The notes under the pieces are model-generated. The model worked only from the letters and a program-made list of their open reading frames with translations. It searched no databases and had not been told where the DNA came from. Shown here in pieces: positions 10,614 through 17,477 of a DNA stretch of 64,000 nucleotides. The position numbers were made by a program, and so were the translations under genes. The stretch is from NCBI RefSeq assembly GCF_054482595.1, contig NZ_CM137008.1; one strand, written 5' to 3'. Every line of letters begins with the position of its first letter. Position 1 is the first letter of the stretch.

Positions 10614-10641
10614 GTGTACCTAAACGTGTACCAATTTTCTC
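10614..10641. repeat. 28-bp direct repeat, left copy (candidate island boundary/att)
   Basis: GTGTACCTAAACGTGTACCAATTTTCTC, identical to 17450..17477. Confidence 0.8.
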
Positions 10642-10692
10642 ACTGTAGCAGTGTTGTATCTCGTATAAACAGGGAACTAAATATGCTGTTAA

Positions 10693-11574
10693 TCATGGGG
10701 CAGCATCATTAGGAGGGTATACATTGACCGATGTACTTACACGATGAAACTCTAGTATGTTGCCAGTATGGTGACCAGGGATAGCTTCAAACACCCCAAG
10801 AAATCGGTACAGTGTCCTGTTCAACTCATCACGAGAATGTGCCATAACAATTCGTTTATCCCAGCGTTCTGTGTATCCCTCATCATCCTTTATATTCCGC
10901 TCTATGATTTTGTTACCATCATCAGTCAATTCATTTCCCCAATCTGAATTTCCATATAGTTTTGGAAACCAAACCATGCATTTTCCTGATAGACCCATTG
11001 CTTCACTTATGTGAGAAGGAATGCTCCAACCGCCAGACTGATGATGTCCTTTGTTGTAACCGAAACAGTTCAAAGCATCCCGGTGGTATCTGAAGACGGC
11101 ATCTGGACCTACAGATATCCTTCCTGCCTTAAGATGAGGACGAGCTGTATATTTATTATCATAATCCCATTCTTTGAATTTTTTATCTTTAATCATTCTA
11201 TTTTTACGATTGCGTATCAACTCAATAAATTCATTGATATAACGATCGAAAATTTCAAGACTTATTTCGCTGGCGGGAATTCTTTTCTCTAAAAATCCTG
11301 TAACTTCAGTAATATCCATACGACGTTTCGCATCATCTATTTGTGATTGCTCACTGTTGTGATGCCCTTCATCAATTTCAAGATAAAGTTCCAGTTGTGG
11401 GAAAAATAAATCTGCCAAATAGATTTTTCCATTTTCTTTTCTGACACATTGCTGGCAGACAAATTCAATGTCGGGATCATTTAAAAGATGATAAATGCGA
11501 GTTACTGCATAATGTTCCCATCGTTTTTTTGAGGTTTTCGTAAGTGAACGTAGGATGTAATCAGTTTTATCCAT
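10693..11574 (-). CDS. Hypothetical protein, 293 aa, AT-rich, inside the satellite-like island
   Basis: Clean ORF; ELYLEIDEGHH and C-terminal KRIVMAH (Rx4H-like) motifs noted but no confident family assignment. Confidence 0.55.
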   Translation of the reverse strand: MDKTDYILRSLTKTSKKRWEHYAVTRIYHLLNDPDIEFVCQQCVRKENGKIYLADLFFPQLELYLEIDEGHHNSEQSQIDDAKRRMDITEVTGFLEKRIPASEISLEIFDRYINEFIELIRNRKNRMIKDKKFKEWDYDNKYTARPHLKAGRISVGPDAVFRYHRDALNCFGYNKGHHQSGGWSIPSHISEAMGLSGKCMVWFPKLYGNSDWGNELTDDGNKIIERNIKDDEGYTERWDKRIVMAHSRDELNRTLYRFLGVFEAIPGHHTGNILEFHRVSTSVNVYPPNDAAP

Positions 11575-11845
11575 TTATATGCCTTCCTTCTTTGTTCTTC
11601 ATGTAATGTGCTTTTTCTTATGGCGATAGTGTTACCTATCGCCATAAGATGCGTTAGTATTTTTTTAATCTAACTGTTTATACTGTTAACTTCGATGATT
11701 TTCTATTTTATATCATGTGGTTAAGCGGTGGTGAGTTGGTGAGGAGTGAAAAGTCGAATCTTCCCCTTTGTGATTTTTGCTCGTTCTGGATCTGCCCGGT
11801 CAGGCGATGTGGTGGGGGGGGGTAAAAAGTTTTTTTAGGTTTTAC

Positions 11846-11937
11846 TGTTCACACTGTTCACCTCTGGTTTTTTATTAATAATTTCATGGTGATACAGGGT
11901 GAAGATACGGTGAAGGGTGAACAGTGGATTGTTCACC
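11846..11937. repeat. Iteron cluster of TGTTCACC octamers in both orientations (P4 ori/crr-like alpha-binding repeats)
   Basis: Full octamers or close variants at 11846-11853, 11855-11862, 11916-11923 (GGTGAACA) and 11930-11937, plus partial GGTGAAG copies at about 11898 and 11909; the last two form a palindrome GGTGAACAgtggatTGTTCACC. Confidence 0.6.
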
Positions 11938-11989
11938 TTGTGGCAATGGCCAGAAAGGAAAAGACCGGCTGTTGCCGGTCTGAGTGAGG

Positions 11990-12565
11990 TTATGTTGCTA
12001 CGGGTTCGTCGCATTTCGGTAGCCAGTCGCCGTAGCTTTCCTCTTTCAGCGACAGATTGGTTTGTATCCCCTGCTTAGTGTGCCGCTTCTCATAATTCAG
12101 GCCGTACTCTTTCAGCATCATGGGCAGCCCCAGCCCGAACATTTTCAGGCTGAGTACGTTCCTATACCCGTTAGCCTCCATATAGGCCAGATACGCGTGA
12201 TAGAGATATTTACGATAATTACGCGGGATGATGCTGGCATTCCCCATAAACATCCCGTTGGTCTGCGGGAGCATTTCCAGATAGCCGCAAAAATCAAACG
12301 TAGGGTCAGCATCGCGCTTGATGCTGAGCGCCTCGTCGGAATTCTGCTGTGACTGGAGCAGTGCGCAGGCTGCCATCGGGTCGCTGAACTTCTGCATGAG
12401 CTGGCGCACAATCACGGCCAGCTCGCGCGCAATTTTATCCCTGAGCTGCGGGTCGCGTTCCTCCGGCGCAATTTGCTCCGGGAAGTGAATAATCACCCGG
12501 CGACGTGACACACCACCGCTGCGGTCGGTGAAGCGCATGGGGTTATTGTTCACTGCCAGAATCAC
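11990..12565 (-). pseudogene. Truncated primase/helicase (P4 alpha-like, D5/SF3 family) C-terminal remnant
   Basis: Frame stays open upstream to about 12670 without a start codon (…LKAITGGDAVSVDPKYQNPYSTHIPAVILAVNNNPMRFTDRSGGVSRRRVIIHF…); far shorter than an intact alpha (~770 aa). Confidence 0.5.
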
Positions 12566-15352: not shown

Positions 15353-15357
15353 TACAT

Positions 15358-16203
15358 ATGTGGACACTACCTTTACCAGATGATGCGGATAGAATGAGCG
15401 AGTTATTAACCGCTTTAACGTATAAAAATGGAAATCCTAAGTATGCTTTAACACAAGATGAAAAGGATAAAATTGAAACTATTTATACTTTATATCACGA
15501 TCGTAAAGCAACTCCCTGTGCTGAATTTTTAGCAGAGGAAATAAGTGATGAAACCCAAAATGCTATAAAAACAGCTTATTCAGAAGTGCAAATAAATGGA
15601 CGGCTTTCAACCCTTCGCTCAAGGATTTTATTAAGTTCTAAAAAATGCCCATTATGTGGGATCGAATCATCAACCGACCTAGATCATTATCTTCCCGAAT
15701 CAATATATAAATGTCTCGCAGTATATTCAAGAAACCTGATACCGACCTGTCATAAGTGCAATAATAAAAAAAGAGCTGGTGTAGCAGAAAATGGAGTTGG
15801 ATTTATTCATGTGTATTATTTTGATGAGCCCGATGGTGTATTTTTCGTTGCCAATACTGAAATGATAGATGGTGCTTTAGTAATTGATTTTAATATCAAT
15901 ATGATCGAGGGTATGACTCGAGAGGTATATGATTCATTATGCTTTCAAAATAGAGTTGTTAACCTAAATGAAAGGTTAAAGATGGAAGCGAATGATTTTT
16001 TAGGGGGGCTCTATACTTCACTTGAAGAAACATATAATTCTGCAGGCCAAGAAGGATTAAGATTATTTCTAAAAAGAACTAGGGATGACTATACCAGACG
16101 TTATGGGCTTAATCATTGGAGAAGAGCATTGATAGATAGTCTATCCGATAATGTGGAGTTCCTTGACGCTGGTTTTATTACTGCCTTAGGAACTCCAGAG
16201 TGA
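15358..16203 (+). CDS. HNH endonuclease-fold protein, 281 aa; PtuB-like candidate defence nuclease
   Basis: HNH motif KKCPLCG…DLDHYLPES…N…CHKCNNKK; starts 5 nt after the ATPase stop with AAAGGA SD (translational coupling); ends 2 nt before the convergent integrase. Confidence 0.8.
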   Translation: MWTLPLPDDADRMSELLTALTYKNGNPKYALTQDEKDKIETIYTLYHDRKATPCAEFLAEEISDETQNAIKTAYSEVQINGRLSTLRSRILLSSKKCPLCGIESSTDLDHYLPESIYKCLAVYSRNLIPTCHKCNNKKRAGVAENGVGFIHVYYFDEPDGVFFVANTEMIDGALVIDFNINMIEGMTREVYDSLCFQNRVVNLNERLKMEANDFLGGLYTSLEETYNSAGQEGLRLFLKRTRDDYTRRYGLNHWRRALIDSLSDNVEFLDAGFITALGTPE

Positions 16204-16205
16204 GT

Positions 16206-17399
16206 TTACTGGTGGGGATGAATATGTCGTCCCCACCAATTCATCAATTCAATTCTTGCGTGTAAATATGTTGAGCGATTGTAGGCTTTTCGTACTTCAT
16301 TTCTATCTGAATGAGCAAGAGCAGCCTCAATTACATCAGCATTAAAACCGGCTTCATTCATTGCCGTACTTGCAATCGAACGTAAACCATGTGCAACCAA
16401 TTTCCCACCATAACCTATTCGCTTAAGTGCAGCATTGGCAGTTTGGCTATTCATAGGTTGTTTTGGATTATTTCTGCTGGGAAAAACATGTTCTCGATGT
16501 GCACTAATAGGTTTCATCACATCCAGAATTTCTAATGCTTGTGGTGATAAAGGAACAATGTGTTCACGCTTAGCCTTCATTCGTTCGGCGGGAATCGTCC
16601 AGAGTTTGGCATTGAGATCGATCTCTACCCACCGAGCACCAGAAGCCTCAGAAGGGCGCACTAGGGTCAGAAGCTGCCATTCAATAAGACAGCGAGTCGG
16701 AACAGACAGATTCGACATGACCAGGGAACGCATAAGCTTAGGTAATTCTTCTGGCCGTAGCGTGGGCATATTTTGCTTTTTGGGTTTCTCAAAAGCCATT
16801 CCTACACCCGAAGCCGGGTTGGCATCTATCAGACCGGTATTAACCGCATAAATCATTATTTCGTTAATACGCTGAACTAGGCGACGAACCGTCTCTAATG
16901 CGCCACGTGCTTTGATTGGCTCCAATGCTTCAACAATCGTTCTGGCCTTTATATCCTGAACGGGCATCGCACCGATTGCCGGGAACACGTCTTTATCCAA
17001 AGAACGCCAAATATCCTTTGCATAATCCTCTGTGACACTTCTGCTTTTAATCTGGAACCAGTTAGCGGCCACAGTTGAGAAAATGCTGTCTAACTCAATC
17101 TGGCGTTGTGCTGACGCTTGCTCCTGTTGCTGTTGTGGATCCATGCCTTGCGCGAGCGTGGTTAAGTGCTGGTCGCGTATCTGACGAGCTGCTGCGAGTG
17201 TAAGGGCAGGGTATGAGCCGAGACTCAAATTTGTGCGGCTGCTGCTTCCCGGTCGTTGATAACGGAAGCGTCAGAGTTTTTTACCGGAGGTTTTGACGAG
17301 TAAGAACAGGCCATCACCATCATGCAGGGTGAAGTCTTTTTCGCGGGGTTTCGCTTTGAGGATTTCGTTGTTAGTGAGGGGGCGTGTAATGCGCGCCAT
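16206..17399 (-). pseudogene. intA: P4-family tyrosine integrase (intA-like) interrupted by an in-frame TGA after codon 42
   Basis: N-terminus MARITRPLTNNEILKAKPREKDFTLHDGDGLFLLVKTSGKKL, then TGA (complement 17271..17273), then the same frame continues RFRYQRPGSSSRTNLSLGSYPALT… into the 340-aa ORF. Confidence 0.8.
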
Positions 17400-17449
17400 G
17401 TCTGGATCCCTTCCATAATTGGTACACGTTTAATGGACCACAGTATAGC

Positions 17450-17477
17450 GTGTACCTAAACGTGTACCAATTTTCTC
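17450..17477. repeat. 28-bp direct repeat, right copy (between integrase and ssrA)
   Basis: Identical to 10614..10641. Confidence 0.8.

What the first reader, a model, noticed from the sequence alone, without database searches (positions are those of the whole stretch)
10614..17477. About 6.9 kb island bounded by perfect 28-bp direct repeats next to ssrA: degraded P4-like satellite
GTGTACCTAAACGTGTACCAATTTTCTC occurs at 10614-10641 and 17450-17477. The interval contains an integrase, a psu-like gene, an alpha-like primase/helicase remnant with TGTTCACC iterons, the ATPase/HNH cargo and one orphan gene. ssrA is a classic integration target. The repeats lie about 105 bp outside the ssrA 3' end rather than within it, so they may be att-derived or integrase arm sites.
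Basis: partly seen in the sequence, partly recalled or inferred. Interest (0 to 1): 0.7.

Follow-up and report, generated by a model that had tools for sequence, protein, structure and literature searches.

The report
Integrase arm sites in decayed P4-like island
The two perfect 28-base repeats are not the edges of the island: they are the paired integrase "arm" binding sites of a broken P4-type phage satellite that sits in the end of the ssrA gene and carries two anti-phage defence modules, which is an ordinary, well-understood kind of element.

Summary
GTGTACCTAAACGTGTACCAATTTTCTC occurs exactly twice, at 10614-10641 and 17450-17477.

Unoccupied E. coli genomes, about half of 5,426, join ypjA directly to the ssrA 3' end and hold no copy of the 28-mer. 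The real junctions are an 8-bp core, GCTGGCGG (ssrA nt 349-356), at 10544-10551 and 17590-17597. The 28-mers lie 62 and 112 bp inside them.

Each 28-mer is a tandem pair of 12-bp units. A third, inverted copy sits 16 bp upstream of the int start. This is the layout annotated for P4 attP (arm pairs 53 and 112 bp from the core).

The spacing is invariant in five intact ssrA satellites. The motif occurs in about 90 Enterobacterales species, only in these two contexts. Its G/A variant tracks the Int arm-binding domain, not the Vis-like protein.

The element is a dead P4-like satellite:
- int carries W43stop and psu an internal stop.
- A 4.5-kb deletion removed most of alpha through delta.
- crr and cos are retained.

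The cargo is a Septu-type ATPase/HNH pair and a PvuRts1I-family restriction enzyme (the "orphan" gene).

It is a rare (15 of 5,426 genomes) new member of a known kind, of low interest.

The parts
10542..10559 (.). Distal junction (called attR here). It is a decayed displaced copy of the ssrA 3' end, GGGCTGGCGGAGTCTGAA, with the 8-bp crossover core GCTGGCGG at 10544-10551. It lacks 5 bp (TTGGT) relative to intact relatives.
   Evidence: Alignment to the empty site and to intact satellites. K-12 annotates the CP4-57 start at ssrA nt 349 and the psaA fragment. PMC10107115 reports that CP4-57 excision deletes U357.
10614..10641 (+). Left 28-mer: the P' arm, a tandem pair of 12-bp arm-type units (GTGTACCTAAAC GTGTACCAATTT), 62 bp inside the attR core.
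   Evidence: The same 62-bp spacing occurs in six E. coli elements and in P'-type hits from other genera.
10693..11574 (-). PvuRts1I/AbaSI-family modification-dependent (5hmC / glucosyl-5hmC) restriction endonuclease, intact at 293 aa. It is cargo in the minor primase-att hotspot. The inserted module spans 10637-11659.
   Evidence: PADLOC mREase_II 4e-122. Pfam PvuRts1I-like_N plus SRA. PDB 4oky PvuRts1I E=4.6e-114 over the full length. The module is absent from intact relatives L005 and L006.
11616..11649 (.). Perfect 14-bp inverted repeat (TCTTATGGCGATAG / CTATCGCCATAAGA) about 40 bp upstream of the restriction gene start. Function unknown; a possible operator.
   Evidence: I23.
11660..11940 (.). 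crr (cis replication region): two ~115-bp repeats (11660-11774, decayed, and 11824-11938) carrying P4 type-1 iterons TGTTCACC.
   Evidence: blastn to P4 crr 4292-4406 and 4472-4590 and to GF3-3. Iteron positions.
11990..12658 (-). alpha (primase-helicase) remnant, the C-terminal ~223 of ~781 residues; a pseudogene.
   Evidence: 84% DNA identity to P4 alpha. TIGR01613 primase_Cterm. RefSeq annotation 'missing N-terminus'.
12644..12707 (+). Deletion junction (microhomology CACCGC near 12655-12660) fused to the last codons of delta. About 4.5 kb is lost: alpha residues 1-557, the DUF5375 and Icd-like genes, the Vis-like HTH gene, sid and most of delta. By position the ori is lost too.
   Evidence: blastn against the intact satellite GF3-3 and junction sequences; gene list of the intact relative.
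12723..13292 (+). psu (polarity suppression protein) pseudogene: 190 codons with TAG at codon 92 (12996-12998).
   Evidence: RefSeq annotation 'internal stop'. 73% DNA identity to P4 psu-cos.
13462..13480 (+). cos cohesive-end sequence GGCGTGGCGGGGAGAGCAT, 16 of 19 identical to P4/P2 GGCGAGGCGGGGAAAGCAC. The conserved cos region is about 13328-13508.
   Evidence: The P4 alignment ends at P4 nt 11623. P4 termini. Ends of P2-like phage records hit this stretch.
13691..15352 (+). Septu-type ATPase (PtuA-like; PADLOC PDC-M01A), intact. It is cargo in the canonical psu-int hotspot.
   Evidence: PADLOC PDC-M01A 1e-99 and PtuA1 1e-73. TIGR04435 and NF041760 PtuA hits, both well below the curated cut-offs. 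Only a distant C-terminal match to solved PtuA.
15358..16203 (+). Septu-type HNH nuclease (PtuB-like; PDC-M01B), intact.
   Evidence: PADLOC PDC-M01B 3e-37 and PtuB 2e-8. Weak Pfam HNH match at residues 97-139.
16206..17399 (-). P4-family tyrosine integrase pseudogene with TGG->TGA at codon 43 (17271-17273), inside the arm-binding domain.
   Evidence: Translations of the window gene and of intact homologues. NF007246 at 496 bits.
17417..17441 (-). Inverted arm units next to the int start: one perfect unit at 17417-17432 and one degenerate unit.
   Evidence: (I9). This is the positional equivalent of the P4 repeat at 3915-3926.
17450..17477 (+). Right 28-mer: the P arm, a tandem pair of arm-type units 112 bp inside the attL core. 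The predicted int promoter -35 hexamer (17465-17470) lies within it.
17509..17533 (-). Terminator-like hairpin plus T-run downstream of ssrA, supplied by the island.
   Evidence: It is conserved in related P arms.
17583..17597 (-). ssrA-proximal junction (called attL here): crossover core GCTGGCGG at 17590-17597 (ssrA nt 349-356). The last 7 nt of ssrA (UCCACCA, 17583-17589) are inferred to be island-supplied.

Best explanation
The locus is a decayed P4-like phage satellite integrated at the 3' end of ssrA. Its real junctions are an 8-bp crossover core, GCTGGCGG (ssrA nt 349-356), at 10544-10551 and 17590-17597. Each 28-bp repeat is a tandem pair of 12-bp arm-type binding sites for the N-terminal arm-binding domain of the element's own P4-family integrase. 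One pair is the P arm, 112 bp from the core on the int side. The other is the P' arm, 62 bp from the core on the crr side. A further inverted unit lies just upstream of int. In the excised circle the two pairs would flank the core and help the integrase bridge arm and core DNA in the recombination complex. The int-side sites also overlap the predicted int promoter, as in P4, whose Int represses its own promoter (inferred here). The element can no longer move. int has a nonsense codon, and the Vis-like gene, most of alpha and the genes through sid and most of delta are deleted. The displaced ssrA 3' fragment has lost 5 bp, so the island now supplies the only intact 3' end and terminator of ssrA. 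What stays intact is defence cargo: a Septu-type ATPase/HNH pair in the psu-int hotspot and a PvuRts1I-family hydroxymethylcytosine-dependent restriction enzyme between the P' arm and crr. Shown here: the coordinates, the junctions, the homology, the conserved spacing and the co-variation. Inferred: Int binding, autoregulation and anti-phage activity.
For: Empty site. ypjA abuts the ssrA 3' end with no 28-mer, and 2,754 of 5,426 genomes carry that junction.

Core position. It agrees with the K-12 CP4-57 and psaA annotation and with the reported U357 deletion on CP4-57 excision (PMC10107115).

P4 layout. The P4 GenBank record annotates 'attP arm sequence repeats' as tandem 12-mer pairs 53 and 112 bp from the core, plus an inverted copy at the int start. 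The window has pairs at 62 and 112 bp and an inverted copy 16 bp from the int ATG.

Conserved spacing. Six E. coli ssrA elements share identical spacing (62 bp, and 118 bp measured from the 22-mer) despite about 80-90% backbone identity.

Distribution. The 22-mer GTRTACCTAAACGTRTACCAAT gave 108 hits in about 90 Enterobacterales species. 57 are P-type, most with an int start upstream and/or an ssrA 3' end 118-140 bp downstream. 50 are P'-type by upstream similarity; 31 of these have the GCTGGCGG core 61-63 bp upstream under the strict pattern, and 22 have crr iterons downstream.

Co-variation. The GTG and GTA variants are the same in both units in 105 of 108 hits. They are the same in P and P' in 6 of 6 E. 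coli elements and in 16 of 18 contigs from other species. They match the class of Int residues 1-100 in 44 of 45 loci. Int residues 106 to the end and the Vis-like protein do not follow the class.

Other support. Int has a Pfam Arm-DNA-bind_3 domain. The promoter -35 hexamer lies inside the P pair. For decay and cargo.
Against: No binding or recombination experiment exists for this integrase, so the arm-site role rests on homology of layout with P4 and on comparative data.

The P arm lies about 50 bp from the int 5' end, so its match with the Int N-domain class could reflect linkage alone. Only the P' concordance is free of that problem, and 2 of 18 contigs from other species are discordant. 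One locus (L037) is a hybrid. The single G/A difference may therefore not determine specificity.

The perfect identity extends 5-6 bp beyond the 22-23 bp conserved in relatives, which arm-site function does not explain.

The exact crossover point is inferred from K-12 data on a related but different integrase (59% identity).
Confidence: 0.86

Rival explanations
1. The 28-mers are the att core or target duplication that marks the island boundaries.
For: They are perfect direct repeats that bracket all the island genes and lie near ssrA.
Against: Empty sites contain no copy. Flanking homology runs 73 bp past the left copy and 105 bp or more past the right copy. A displaced ssrA 3' fragment sits exactly 62 bp outside the left copy in every relative examined. 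The layout equals the annotated arm repeats of P4, not its core.
Confidence: 0.02
2. The repeats are binding sites for another factor (the Vis-type excisionase, IHF or a repressor), or serve only as operators of the int promoter, and are not Int arm sites.
For: The predicted -35 hexamer of int lies inside the right copy. P4 int is reported to be repressed by both Int and Vis, with an IHF site in the region (PMC7286903).
Against: The left copy is 7 kb from int and has no promoter context, yet it is conserved at fixed spacing from the core. The Vis-like protein is 99% identical between elements of different motif class and only 72% identical between elements of the same class. The Int N-domain follows the class. 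The motif does not resemble the IHF consensus (own knowledge).
Confidence: 0.08
3. The repeat is a functionless by-product of recent duplication or gene conversion within the island.
For: Identity extends to 28 bp here against 22-23 bp in relatives. The extra TTTCTC tail is typical of P arms (15 of 57) and was never seen at P' arms (0 of 50).
Against: The core 22-mer is conserved in about 90 species at both positions with fixed spacing. Conversion could explain only the extra 5-6 bp.
Confidence: 0.04

Closest known systems
Satellite phage P4 attP (X51522; the arm repeats are annotated in the GenBank record)
   Same: A tandem pair of 12-bp repeats lies on each side of the core, both on the int strand. 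The int-side gap is 112 bp in both. An extra inverted unit sits at the int start. The order is crr-P'-core-P-int. The unit begins ATTGG on the int strand in both.
   Different: The core is the ssrA 3' end, not the P4 core. The unit is AATTGGTACACG rather than ATTGGGGGCATA. The crr-side gap is 62 bp against 53 bp. Int is only 37% identical to P4 Int. A cargo gene lies between P' and crr.
Intact P4-like satellites at ssrA in E. coli (GF3-3 NZ_CP053259; 19SZHZ713Rt NZ_CP080070; MS8320, EPSSH018, RM10740)
   Same: They use the same insertion site and the same arm and core spacing. Backbone identity is about 80-95% for crr, alpha, psu, cos and int. Cargo is variable between psu and int.
   Different: Those elements keep full alpha, the DUF5375, Icd-like and Vis-like genes, sid, delta, psu and an intact int. 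They lack the PvuRts1I-like gene and carry other cargo (DRT3, an ATP-binding protein, a restriction enzyme, a NACHT protein).
CP4-57 cryptic prophage of E. coli K-12 (intA)
   Same: It has the same attB and crossover region in ssrA, the same displaced fragment (psaA) and the same arm-pair layout. It also supplies the ssrA 3' end.
   Different: It is a different element (22 kb, not P4-like in content). IntA is 59% identical. Its arm motif is TGGGCCTA / TGGTCC(C/T)A. It can still excise.
Defence hotspots of P4-like satellites (Rousset et al. 2022, PMC9122126; bioRxiv 10.64898/2026.02.27.708500)
   Same: A Septu-type system lies between psu and int, the canonical hotspot, and a second defence gene lies between the primase and the att site, the reported minor hotspot holding 7% of systems.
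   Different: Both hotspots are occupied at once, which the preprint reports for about 1% of P4s. The carrier is a non-functional remnant.
PvuRts1I (PDB 4oky, 4oq2) and AbaSI (4par)
   Same: Full-length homology (E=4.6e-114 to PvuRts1I) and the same N-terminal nuclease plus C-terminal SRA domain architecture.
   Different: Activity and modification specificity were not tested. The gene sits in a satellite remnant.

Membership tests
Direct repeats marking an island boundary (att core / target duplication) | One copy of the repeat remains at the unoccupied site | tested here: not met
   The empty site in strain 219 has no 28-mer, no 22-mer and no GTRTACC. The same junction is present in 2,754 of 5,426 genomes.
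Direct repeats marking an island boundary (att core / target duplication) | The repeats sit exactly at the transition between flanking and island DNA | tested here: not met
   Flank homology ends at about 10541-10551 and at 17590-17597, which is 62 and 112 bp outside the 28-mers.
Arm-type sites of a heterobivalent tyrosine integrase (lambda/P4 type attP) | A repeated motif, unlike the core, lies on both sides of the core in attP | tested here: met
   Tandem pairs lie at 62 and 112 bp from the core, plus an inverted unit. The motif is unrelated to GCTGGCGG.
Arm-type sites of a heterobivalent tyrosine integrase (lambda/P4 type attP) | The integrase has a separate N-terminal arm-binding domain | tested here: met
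Arm-type sites of a heterobivalent tyrosine integrase (lambda/P4 type attP) | Position and spacing are conserved in homologous elements, and the motif changes together with the arm-binding domain | tested here: met
   Spacing is invariant in six E. coli elements. The 108 hits in about 90 species fall only into P or P' contexts. The class matches the Int N-domain in 44 of 45 loci and P = P' in 22 of 24 elements. Caveat: linkage and shared ancestry.
Arm-type sites of a heterobivalent tyrosine integrase (lambda/P4 type attP) | Int binds the sites directly and they are required for recombination | not testable with these tools
   This needs EMSA or footprinting and att-site mutagenesis.
P4-like satellite (core set as I recall it from SatelliteFinder: int, psu, delta, sid, alpA/vis, epsilon, alpha) | int, psu and alpha are present | tested here: inconclusive
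   All three are recognisable but defective: int W43stop, psu TAG at codon 92, and only the C-terminal 223 aa of alpha.
P4-like satellite (core set as I recall it from SatelliteFinder: int, psu, delta, sid, alpA/vis, epsilon, alpha) | sid, delta, the epsilon/Icd region and the vis/alpA-like gene are present | tested here: not met
   A 4.5-kb deletion relative to GF3-3 leaves only the last ~20 codons of delta. The locus is a remnant, not a functional member.
P4-like satellite (core set as I recall it from SatelliteFinder: int, psu, delta, sid, alpA/vis, epsilon, alpha) | P4-type cis sites are present: crr iterons and a P2/P4 cos | tested here: met
   crr is 76-84% identical to P4 and carries TGTTCACC iterons. 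cos is 16 of 19 identical.
Septu defence system (PtuA ATPase + PtuB HNH) | Adjacent ATPase and HNH nuclease genes match the family profiles | tested here: met
   PADLOC PtuA1 1e-73 / PDC-M01A 1e-99 and PtuB 2e-8 / PDC-M01B 3e-37. PDC-M01 calls coincide with DefenseFinder Septu calls (PMC11811056). The NCBIfam PtuA score is far below its cut-off (40 against 500 bits), so this is a divergent subtype.
Septu defence system (PtuA ATPase + PtuB HNH) | It protects against phage | not testable with these tools
   This needs plaque assays.
PvuRts1I/AbaSI family of modification-dependent restriction enzymes | An N-terminal PvuRts1I-type nuclease domain and a C-terminal SRA domain, with full-length homology to the prototype | tested here: met
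   Pfam PF21598 1e-26 and PF18491 3e-22. PDB 4oky 4.6e-114 over residues 1-287. PADLOC mREase_II 4e-122.

The most novel reading that the evidence does not exclude
The remnant may be a locked-in, domesticated defence island rather than inert debris. Both defence loci, cos, crr and both arm pairs are intact while every function for autonomous life is lost. The chromosome's spare ssrA 3' end is destroyed, so excision would produce a tmRNA without its UCCACCA end. The island might still be mobilised in trans by a co-resident intact ssrA-type satellite (Int, Vis and alpha) plus a P2-like helper. A low level of wild-type Int might also arise from tRNA-Trp readthrough of the UGA-C codon that replaced Trp43. 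In addition, the P-type tail (TTTCTC) on the left arm pair, next to the start of the PvuRts1I module, could mean that arm pairs act as recombination joints for cargo exchange.
Probability: 0.1. Interest if true: 0.4.

Novelty: new member of a known kind. Interest (0 to 1): 0.2.

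Why it matters
It matters mainly as a correction and a worked example. Long perfect direct repeats near a tRNA or tmRNA gene are easily taken for island boundaries. Here they are internal integrase arm sites, and the real junction is a short, imperfect repeat of the gene's 3' end. Boundaries set from such repeats would be about 180 bp too short. They would also miss that the island supplies the last 7 nt and the terminator of ssrA.

The comparative data give a ready-made natural pair of arm-site and arm-binding-domain classes (GTGTACC and GTATACC) for one widespread ssrA-targeting integrase family. 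That could serve studies of integrase specificity.

The cargo is a rare combination in E. coli (15 of 5,426 complete genomes): a divergent Septu-type pair plus a close PvuRts1I homologue. It is carried by an immobilised satellite, which illustrates how satellite-borne defence genes can outlive their vehicle.

None of this is unexpected given published work on P4 attP, CP4-57 and P4 defence hotspots.

Tried and rejected
- Att core reading: rejected by the empty-site alignment.
- Generic repeat: rejected. In E. coli, the 28-mer-only hits I examined lie next to a related integrase. These are the chromosome of strain 1919D62 at ssrA, truncated by IS1, and plasmid pCUPF09A beside an integrase fragment. 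Across other species the motif occurs only in P or P' contexts.
- First classification of the 108 hits: my pattern used E. coli-specific ssrA and core sequences and left 45 hits as 'other'. Inspection showed these were the same architecture with the host's own ssrA sequence (for example GCTGGGGG in Serratia and Yersinia). I reclassified by similarity of the upstream 75 nt.
- Vis-like protein as the binder: not supported by the co-variation test.
- Search for the CP4-57 distal arm with 5 or fewer mismatches to its proximal pair: nothing found. Reading the sequence shows a diverged pair, TTGGTCCCATTG TTGGTCCTAAAA.
- NCBIfam: no family for the restriction gene, the HNH gene or the two psu fragments.
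- PDB sequence search: nothing for the HNH protein.
- Intact progenitor carrying the same cargo: none in 5,426 E. coli genomes. Among the loci from other species, only Tenebrionibacter intestinalis (L056) has PtuA/PtuB homologues (68% and 62% identity) and none has the restriction gene.
- Failed calls: one PHROGs call (internal stop in the coordinates given) and two literature calls (term syntax).
- I mis-framed int by one base and corrected it.

Full report
**1. The observation**

The 28-mer GTGTACCTAAACGTGTACCAATTTTCTC is present exactly at 10614-10641 and 17450-17477 on the + strand. No other match with up to three mismatches exists in the window, and shuffles gave none. ARAGORN places ssrA at 17583-17945 on the - strand. 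The inner 16 bases (TAAACGTGTACCAATT) occur a third time, inverted, at 17417-17432. They form a perfect inverted repeat with 17457-17472. The window is 100% identical to E. coli THO-010, NZ_AP022540.

**2. Where the island really ends**

Strain 219 has ypjA directly next to ssrA. Its sequence runs ...CCGTCCAATCATGA|TTGGTGGAGCTGGCGGGAGTTGAACCC, so the flank abuts the 3' end of ssrA. That locus contains no 28-mer, no 22-mer and not even the 7-mer GTRTACC. A 121-bp probe across this junction is covered at 80% or more in 2,754 of 5,426 complete E. coli genomes. The unoccupied state is therefore common.

- In the window the left flank homology ends at ...CAATCATGA (10541). It is followed by GGGCTGGCGGAGTCTGAA (10542-10559), a decayed copy of the ssrA 3' end GGAGCTGGCGGGAGTTGAA.
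- K-12 annotates CP4-57 as starting at ssrA nt 349 and annotates a 14-bp pseudo-3' fragment, psaA, at the far end.
- PMC10107115 reports that CP4-57 excision deletes U357 of ssrA.
- Together these place the crossover in GCTGGCGG (ssrA nt 349-356). In the window that is 17590-17597 and 10544-10551.
- In MS8320 the distal junction reads TTGGTGGAGCTGGCGG|AGTTTGAATAAA. This is what integration into a naive site by crossover in that octamer predicts.

The element is therefore about 7,046 bp. The 28-mers lie inside it, 62 bp from the left core and 112 bp from the right core.

**3. What the 28-mers are**

Each is a tandem pair of 12-bp units (GTGTACCTAAAC GTGTACCAATTT).

*Comparison with P4.* The P4 GenBank record X51522 annotates 'attP arm sequence repeats' with the same layout:
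- a tandem pair at 4151-4174, 53 bp from the 20-bp core on the crr side;
- a tandem pair at 3942-3965, 112 bp from the core on the int side;
- one inverted unit at 3915-3926, overlapping the int start.

The window has pairs at 62 and 112 bp and an inverted unit 16 bp from the int ATG. On the int strand the unit reads AATTGGTACACG here and ATTGGGGGCATA in P4.

*Related E. coli elements.* Five intact P4-like satellites occupy the same site: GF3-3, 19SZHZ713Rt, MS8320, EPSSH018 and RM10740. All show the same spacing: 62 bp, and 118 bp measured from the 22-mer.

*Other species.* Scanning one genome per species for GTRTACCTAAACGTRTACCAAT gave 108 hits in about 90 Enterobacterales species.
- 57 are P-type, most with an int start upstream and/or an ssrA 3' end 118-140 bp downstream.
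- 50 are P'-type by similarity of the upstream 75 nt. Under the strict E. coli pattern, 31 have the GCTGGCGG core 61-63 bp upstream. 22 have at least two crr iterons downstream.
- One hit is too close to a contig end to classify.
- In genera whose ssrA differs, inspection showed that the core differs with it (for example GCTGGGGG in Serratia and Yersinia).

The motif is thus never a generic repeat.

**4. Who binds it**

Repaired Int has Pfam Arm-DNA-bind_3 (8-94), Phage_int_M and Phage_integrase domains. Two motif classes exist, GTGTACC and GTATACC.
- Both units of a pair share the class in 105 of 108 hits.
- P and P' share it in 6 of 6 E. coli elements and in 16 of 18 contigs from other species where both arms lie 9.5-29 kb apart on one strand.
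- Int residues 1-100 fall into two classes that match the motif class: 92% identity or more within a class and 62-65% between classes. The match holds in 44 of 45 loci.
- Int residues 106 to the end are 83-94% identical irrespective of class.
- The Vis-like HTH protein is 99% identical between GF3-3 (GTG class) and 19SZ (GTA class), but only 72% identical between 19SZ and MS8320, which are both GTA class.

This favours the Int N-domain over Vis as the binder. There are caveats. The P arm is physically linked to the int 5' end. The elements share ancestry. Two contigs are discordant and one locus (L037) is a hybrid.

A sigma-70-like promoter for int has its -35 hexamer inside the right 28-mer. 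That fits the Int autorepression reported for P4 (PMC7286903). Binding itself was not tested.

**5. The element**

Compared with GF3-3 and P4, reading from left to right:

| Window coordinates | Feature |
|---|---|
| 10637-11659 | Inserted module absent from relatives, carrying the 293-aa gene at 10693-11574 (-) |
| 11660-11940 | crr: two ~115-bp repeats with TGTTCACC iterons |
| 11990-12658 (-) | C-terminal 223 residues of alpha |
| about 12655-12660 | Deletion junction at the microhomology CACCGC |
| 12661-12707 | Last codons of delta |
| 12723-13292 (+) | psu with TAG at codon 92 |
| 13462-13480 | cos, 16 of 19 identical to P4 |
| 13691-16203 | Cargo: ATPase and HNH genes |
| 16206-17399 (-) | int with TGG->TGA at codon 43 |

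The deletion removed about 4.5 kb: alpha residues 1-557, the DUF5375 and Icd-like genes, the Vis-like gene, sid and most of delta.

The distal junction has also lost 5 bp (TTGGT) relative to GF3-3. A crossover in GCTGGCGG would then give an ssrA without its UCCACCA end. The island also provides the terminator-like hairpin downstream of ssrA. The remnant is therefore immobile, and its loss by site-specific excision would inactivate tmRNA. That last step is an inference.

**6. Cargo**

- *The 'orphan'.* It is a full-length homologue of PvuRts1I (PDB 4oky, E=4.6e-114), with PvuRts1I-like_N and SRA domains and a PADLOC mREase_II match of 4e-122. From established knowledge of the family, it should cut hydroxymethylcytosine or glucosyl-hmC DNA such as that of T-even phages.
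- *The ATPase/HNH pair.* It matches PADLOC PDC-M01A/B (1e-99 and 3e-37) and PtuA1/PtuB (1e-73 and 2e-8). PDC-M01 calls coincide with Septu calls in another study (PMC11811056). It is a divergent subtype: the NCBIfam PtuA score is 40 against a 500-bit cut-off, and only a short C-terminal match to solved PtuA exists.
- *Position.* The pair sits in the psu-int hotspot (PMC9122126). The restriction gene sits in the minor primase-att hotspot, which holds 7% of P4 systems. About 1% of P4s with complete systems carry systems in more than one hotspot (10.64898/2026.02.27.708500).
- *Composition and distribution.* Both cargo blocks are AT-rich, 27-43% GC against 50-61% for the backbone. Both occur in only 15 of 5,426 complete E. 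coli genomes, at 99.9% identity or more, at this locus. Spot checks of two genomes gave the same element size as here. A Tenebrionibacter satellite has PtuA/PtuB homologues in the same position.

**7. Verdict**

They are best explained as P and P' arm-type integrase sites, homologous in layout to those of P4. This is a new member of a known kind. The value of the result is mainly the corrected boundaries and a tidy comparative case.

Noticed in passing
window 10636-10641 (tail of the left 28-mer) and 10637-11659: Relatives share only 22-23 bp between the P and P' pairs. Here identity runs 5-6 bp further (TTTCTC). That hexamer follows 15 of 57 P arms but 0 of 50 P' arms in other species. Homology to GF3-3 also breaks at 10636/10637, where the restriction-gene module begins. 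Gene conversion or recombination between arms is possible; chance is not excluded.
   Followed up: partly
window 17271-17273 (int codon 43): The nonsense codon is TGA followed by C and replaces Trp. From my own knowledge, UGA-C is a leaky context and near-cognate tRNA-Trp readthrough would restore the wild-type residue. Trace amounts of native Int are therefore conceivable.
   Followed up: no
window 11616-11649: A perfect 14-bp inverted repeat (TCTTATGGCGATAG/CTATCGCCATAAGA) lies about 40 bp upstream of the PvuRts1I-like gene. It may be an operator or a terminator.
   Followed up: no
window 2593-2668: ARAGORN calls this tRNA-Met (CAT). The gene at the equivalent position in related genomes is annotated tRNA-Ile. 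This is probably ileY, whose CAT anticodon is read as Ile after lysidine modification (own knowledge).
   Followed up: no
L011 (EPSSH018) 4800-18200; L012 (RM10740) 8000-36000: These are tandem arrays at ssrA. In EPSSH018 a second integrase-bearing island and an ISApl1 lie distal to the P4-like satellite. In RM10740 a lambdoid-type prophage with its own integrase lies between the satellite's P arm and where ssrA should be.
   Followed up: no
L007 (plasmid pCUPF09A) 5379-6130: A frameshifted 5' fragment of the same integrase, with its P-arm pair and the ssrA-terminator region, sits on a 136-kb plasmid among IS and transposon remnants. No ssrA is present.
   Followed up: partly
L037 (Edwardsiella ictaluri) around 660; L054/L055 (Pantoea conspicua); L079/L080 (Edwardsiella anguillarum): These are exceptions to the motif-class rule. 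L037 has a GTG-class Int N-domain and inverted unit but a GTA-class direct pair, so it is a hybrid P arm. The other two genomes have P and P' arms of different class.
   Followed up: partly
L013 and L104: Contigs labelled as a Bacillota MAG and a Flavobacterium psychrophilum MAG carry the enterobacterial arm motif. In L104 the Int N-domain is 98% identical to the window's. These are probably mis-binned or contaminant contigs.
   Followed up: no
L003 (EC21Z-147) 1-1421: In some E. coli genomes the DNA distal to the unoccupied ssrA site is not ypjA but a type II restriction-modification pair. The neighbourhood is therefore variable beyond the att site itself.
   Followed up: no
window 17583-17945: The window's ssrA differs from K-12 and from strain 219 at two positions, nt 207 (G against A) and nt 320 (C against T).
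   Followed up: no
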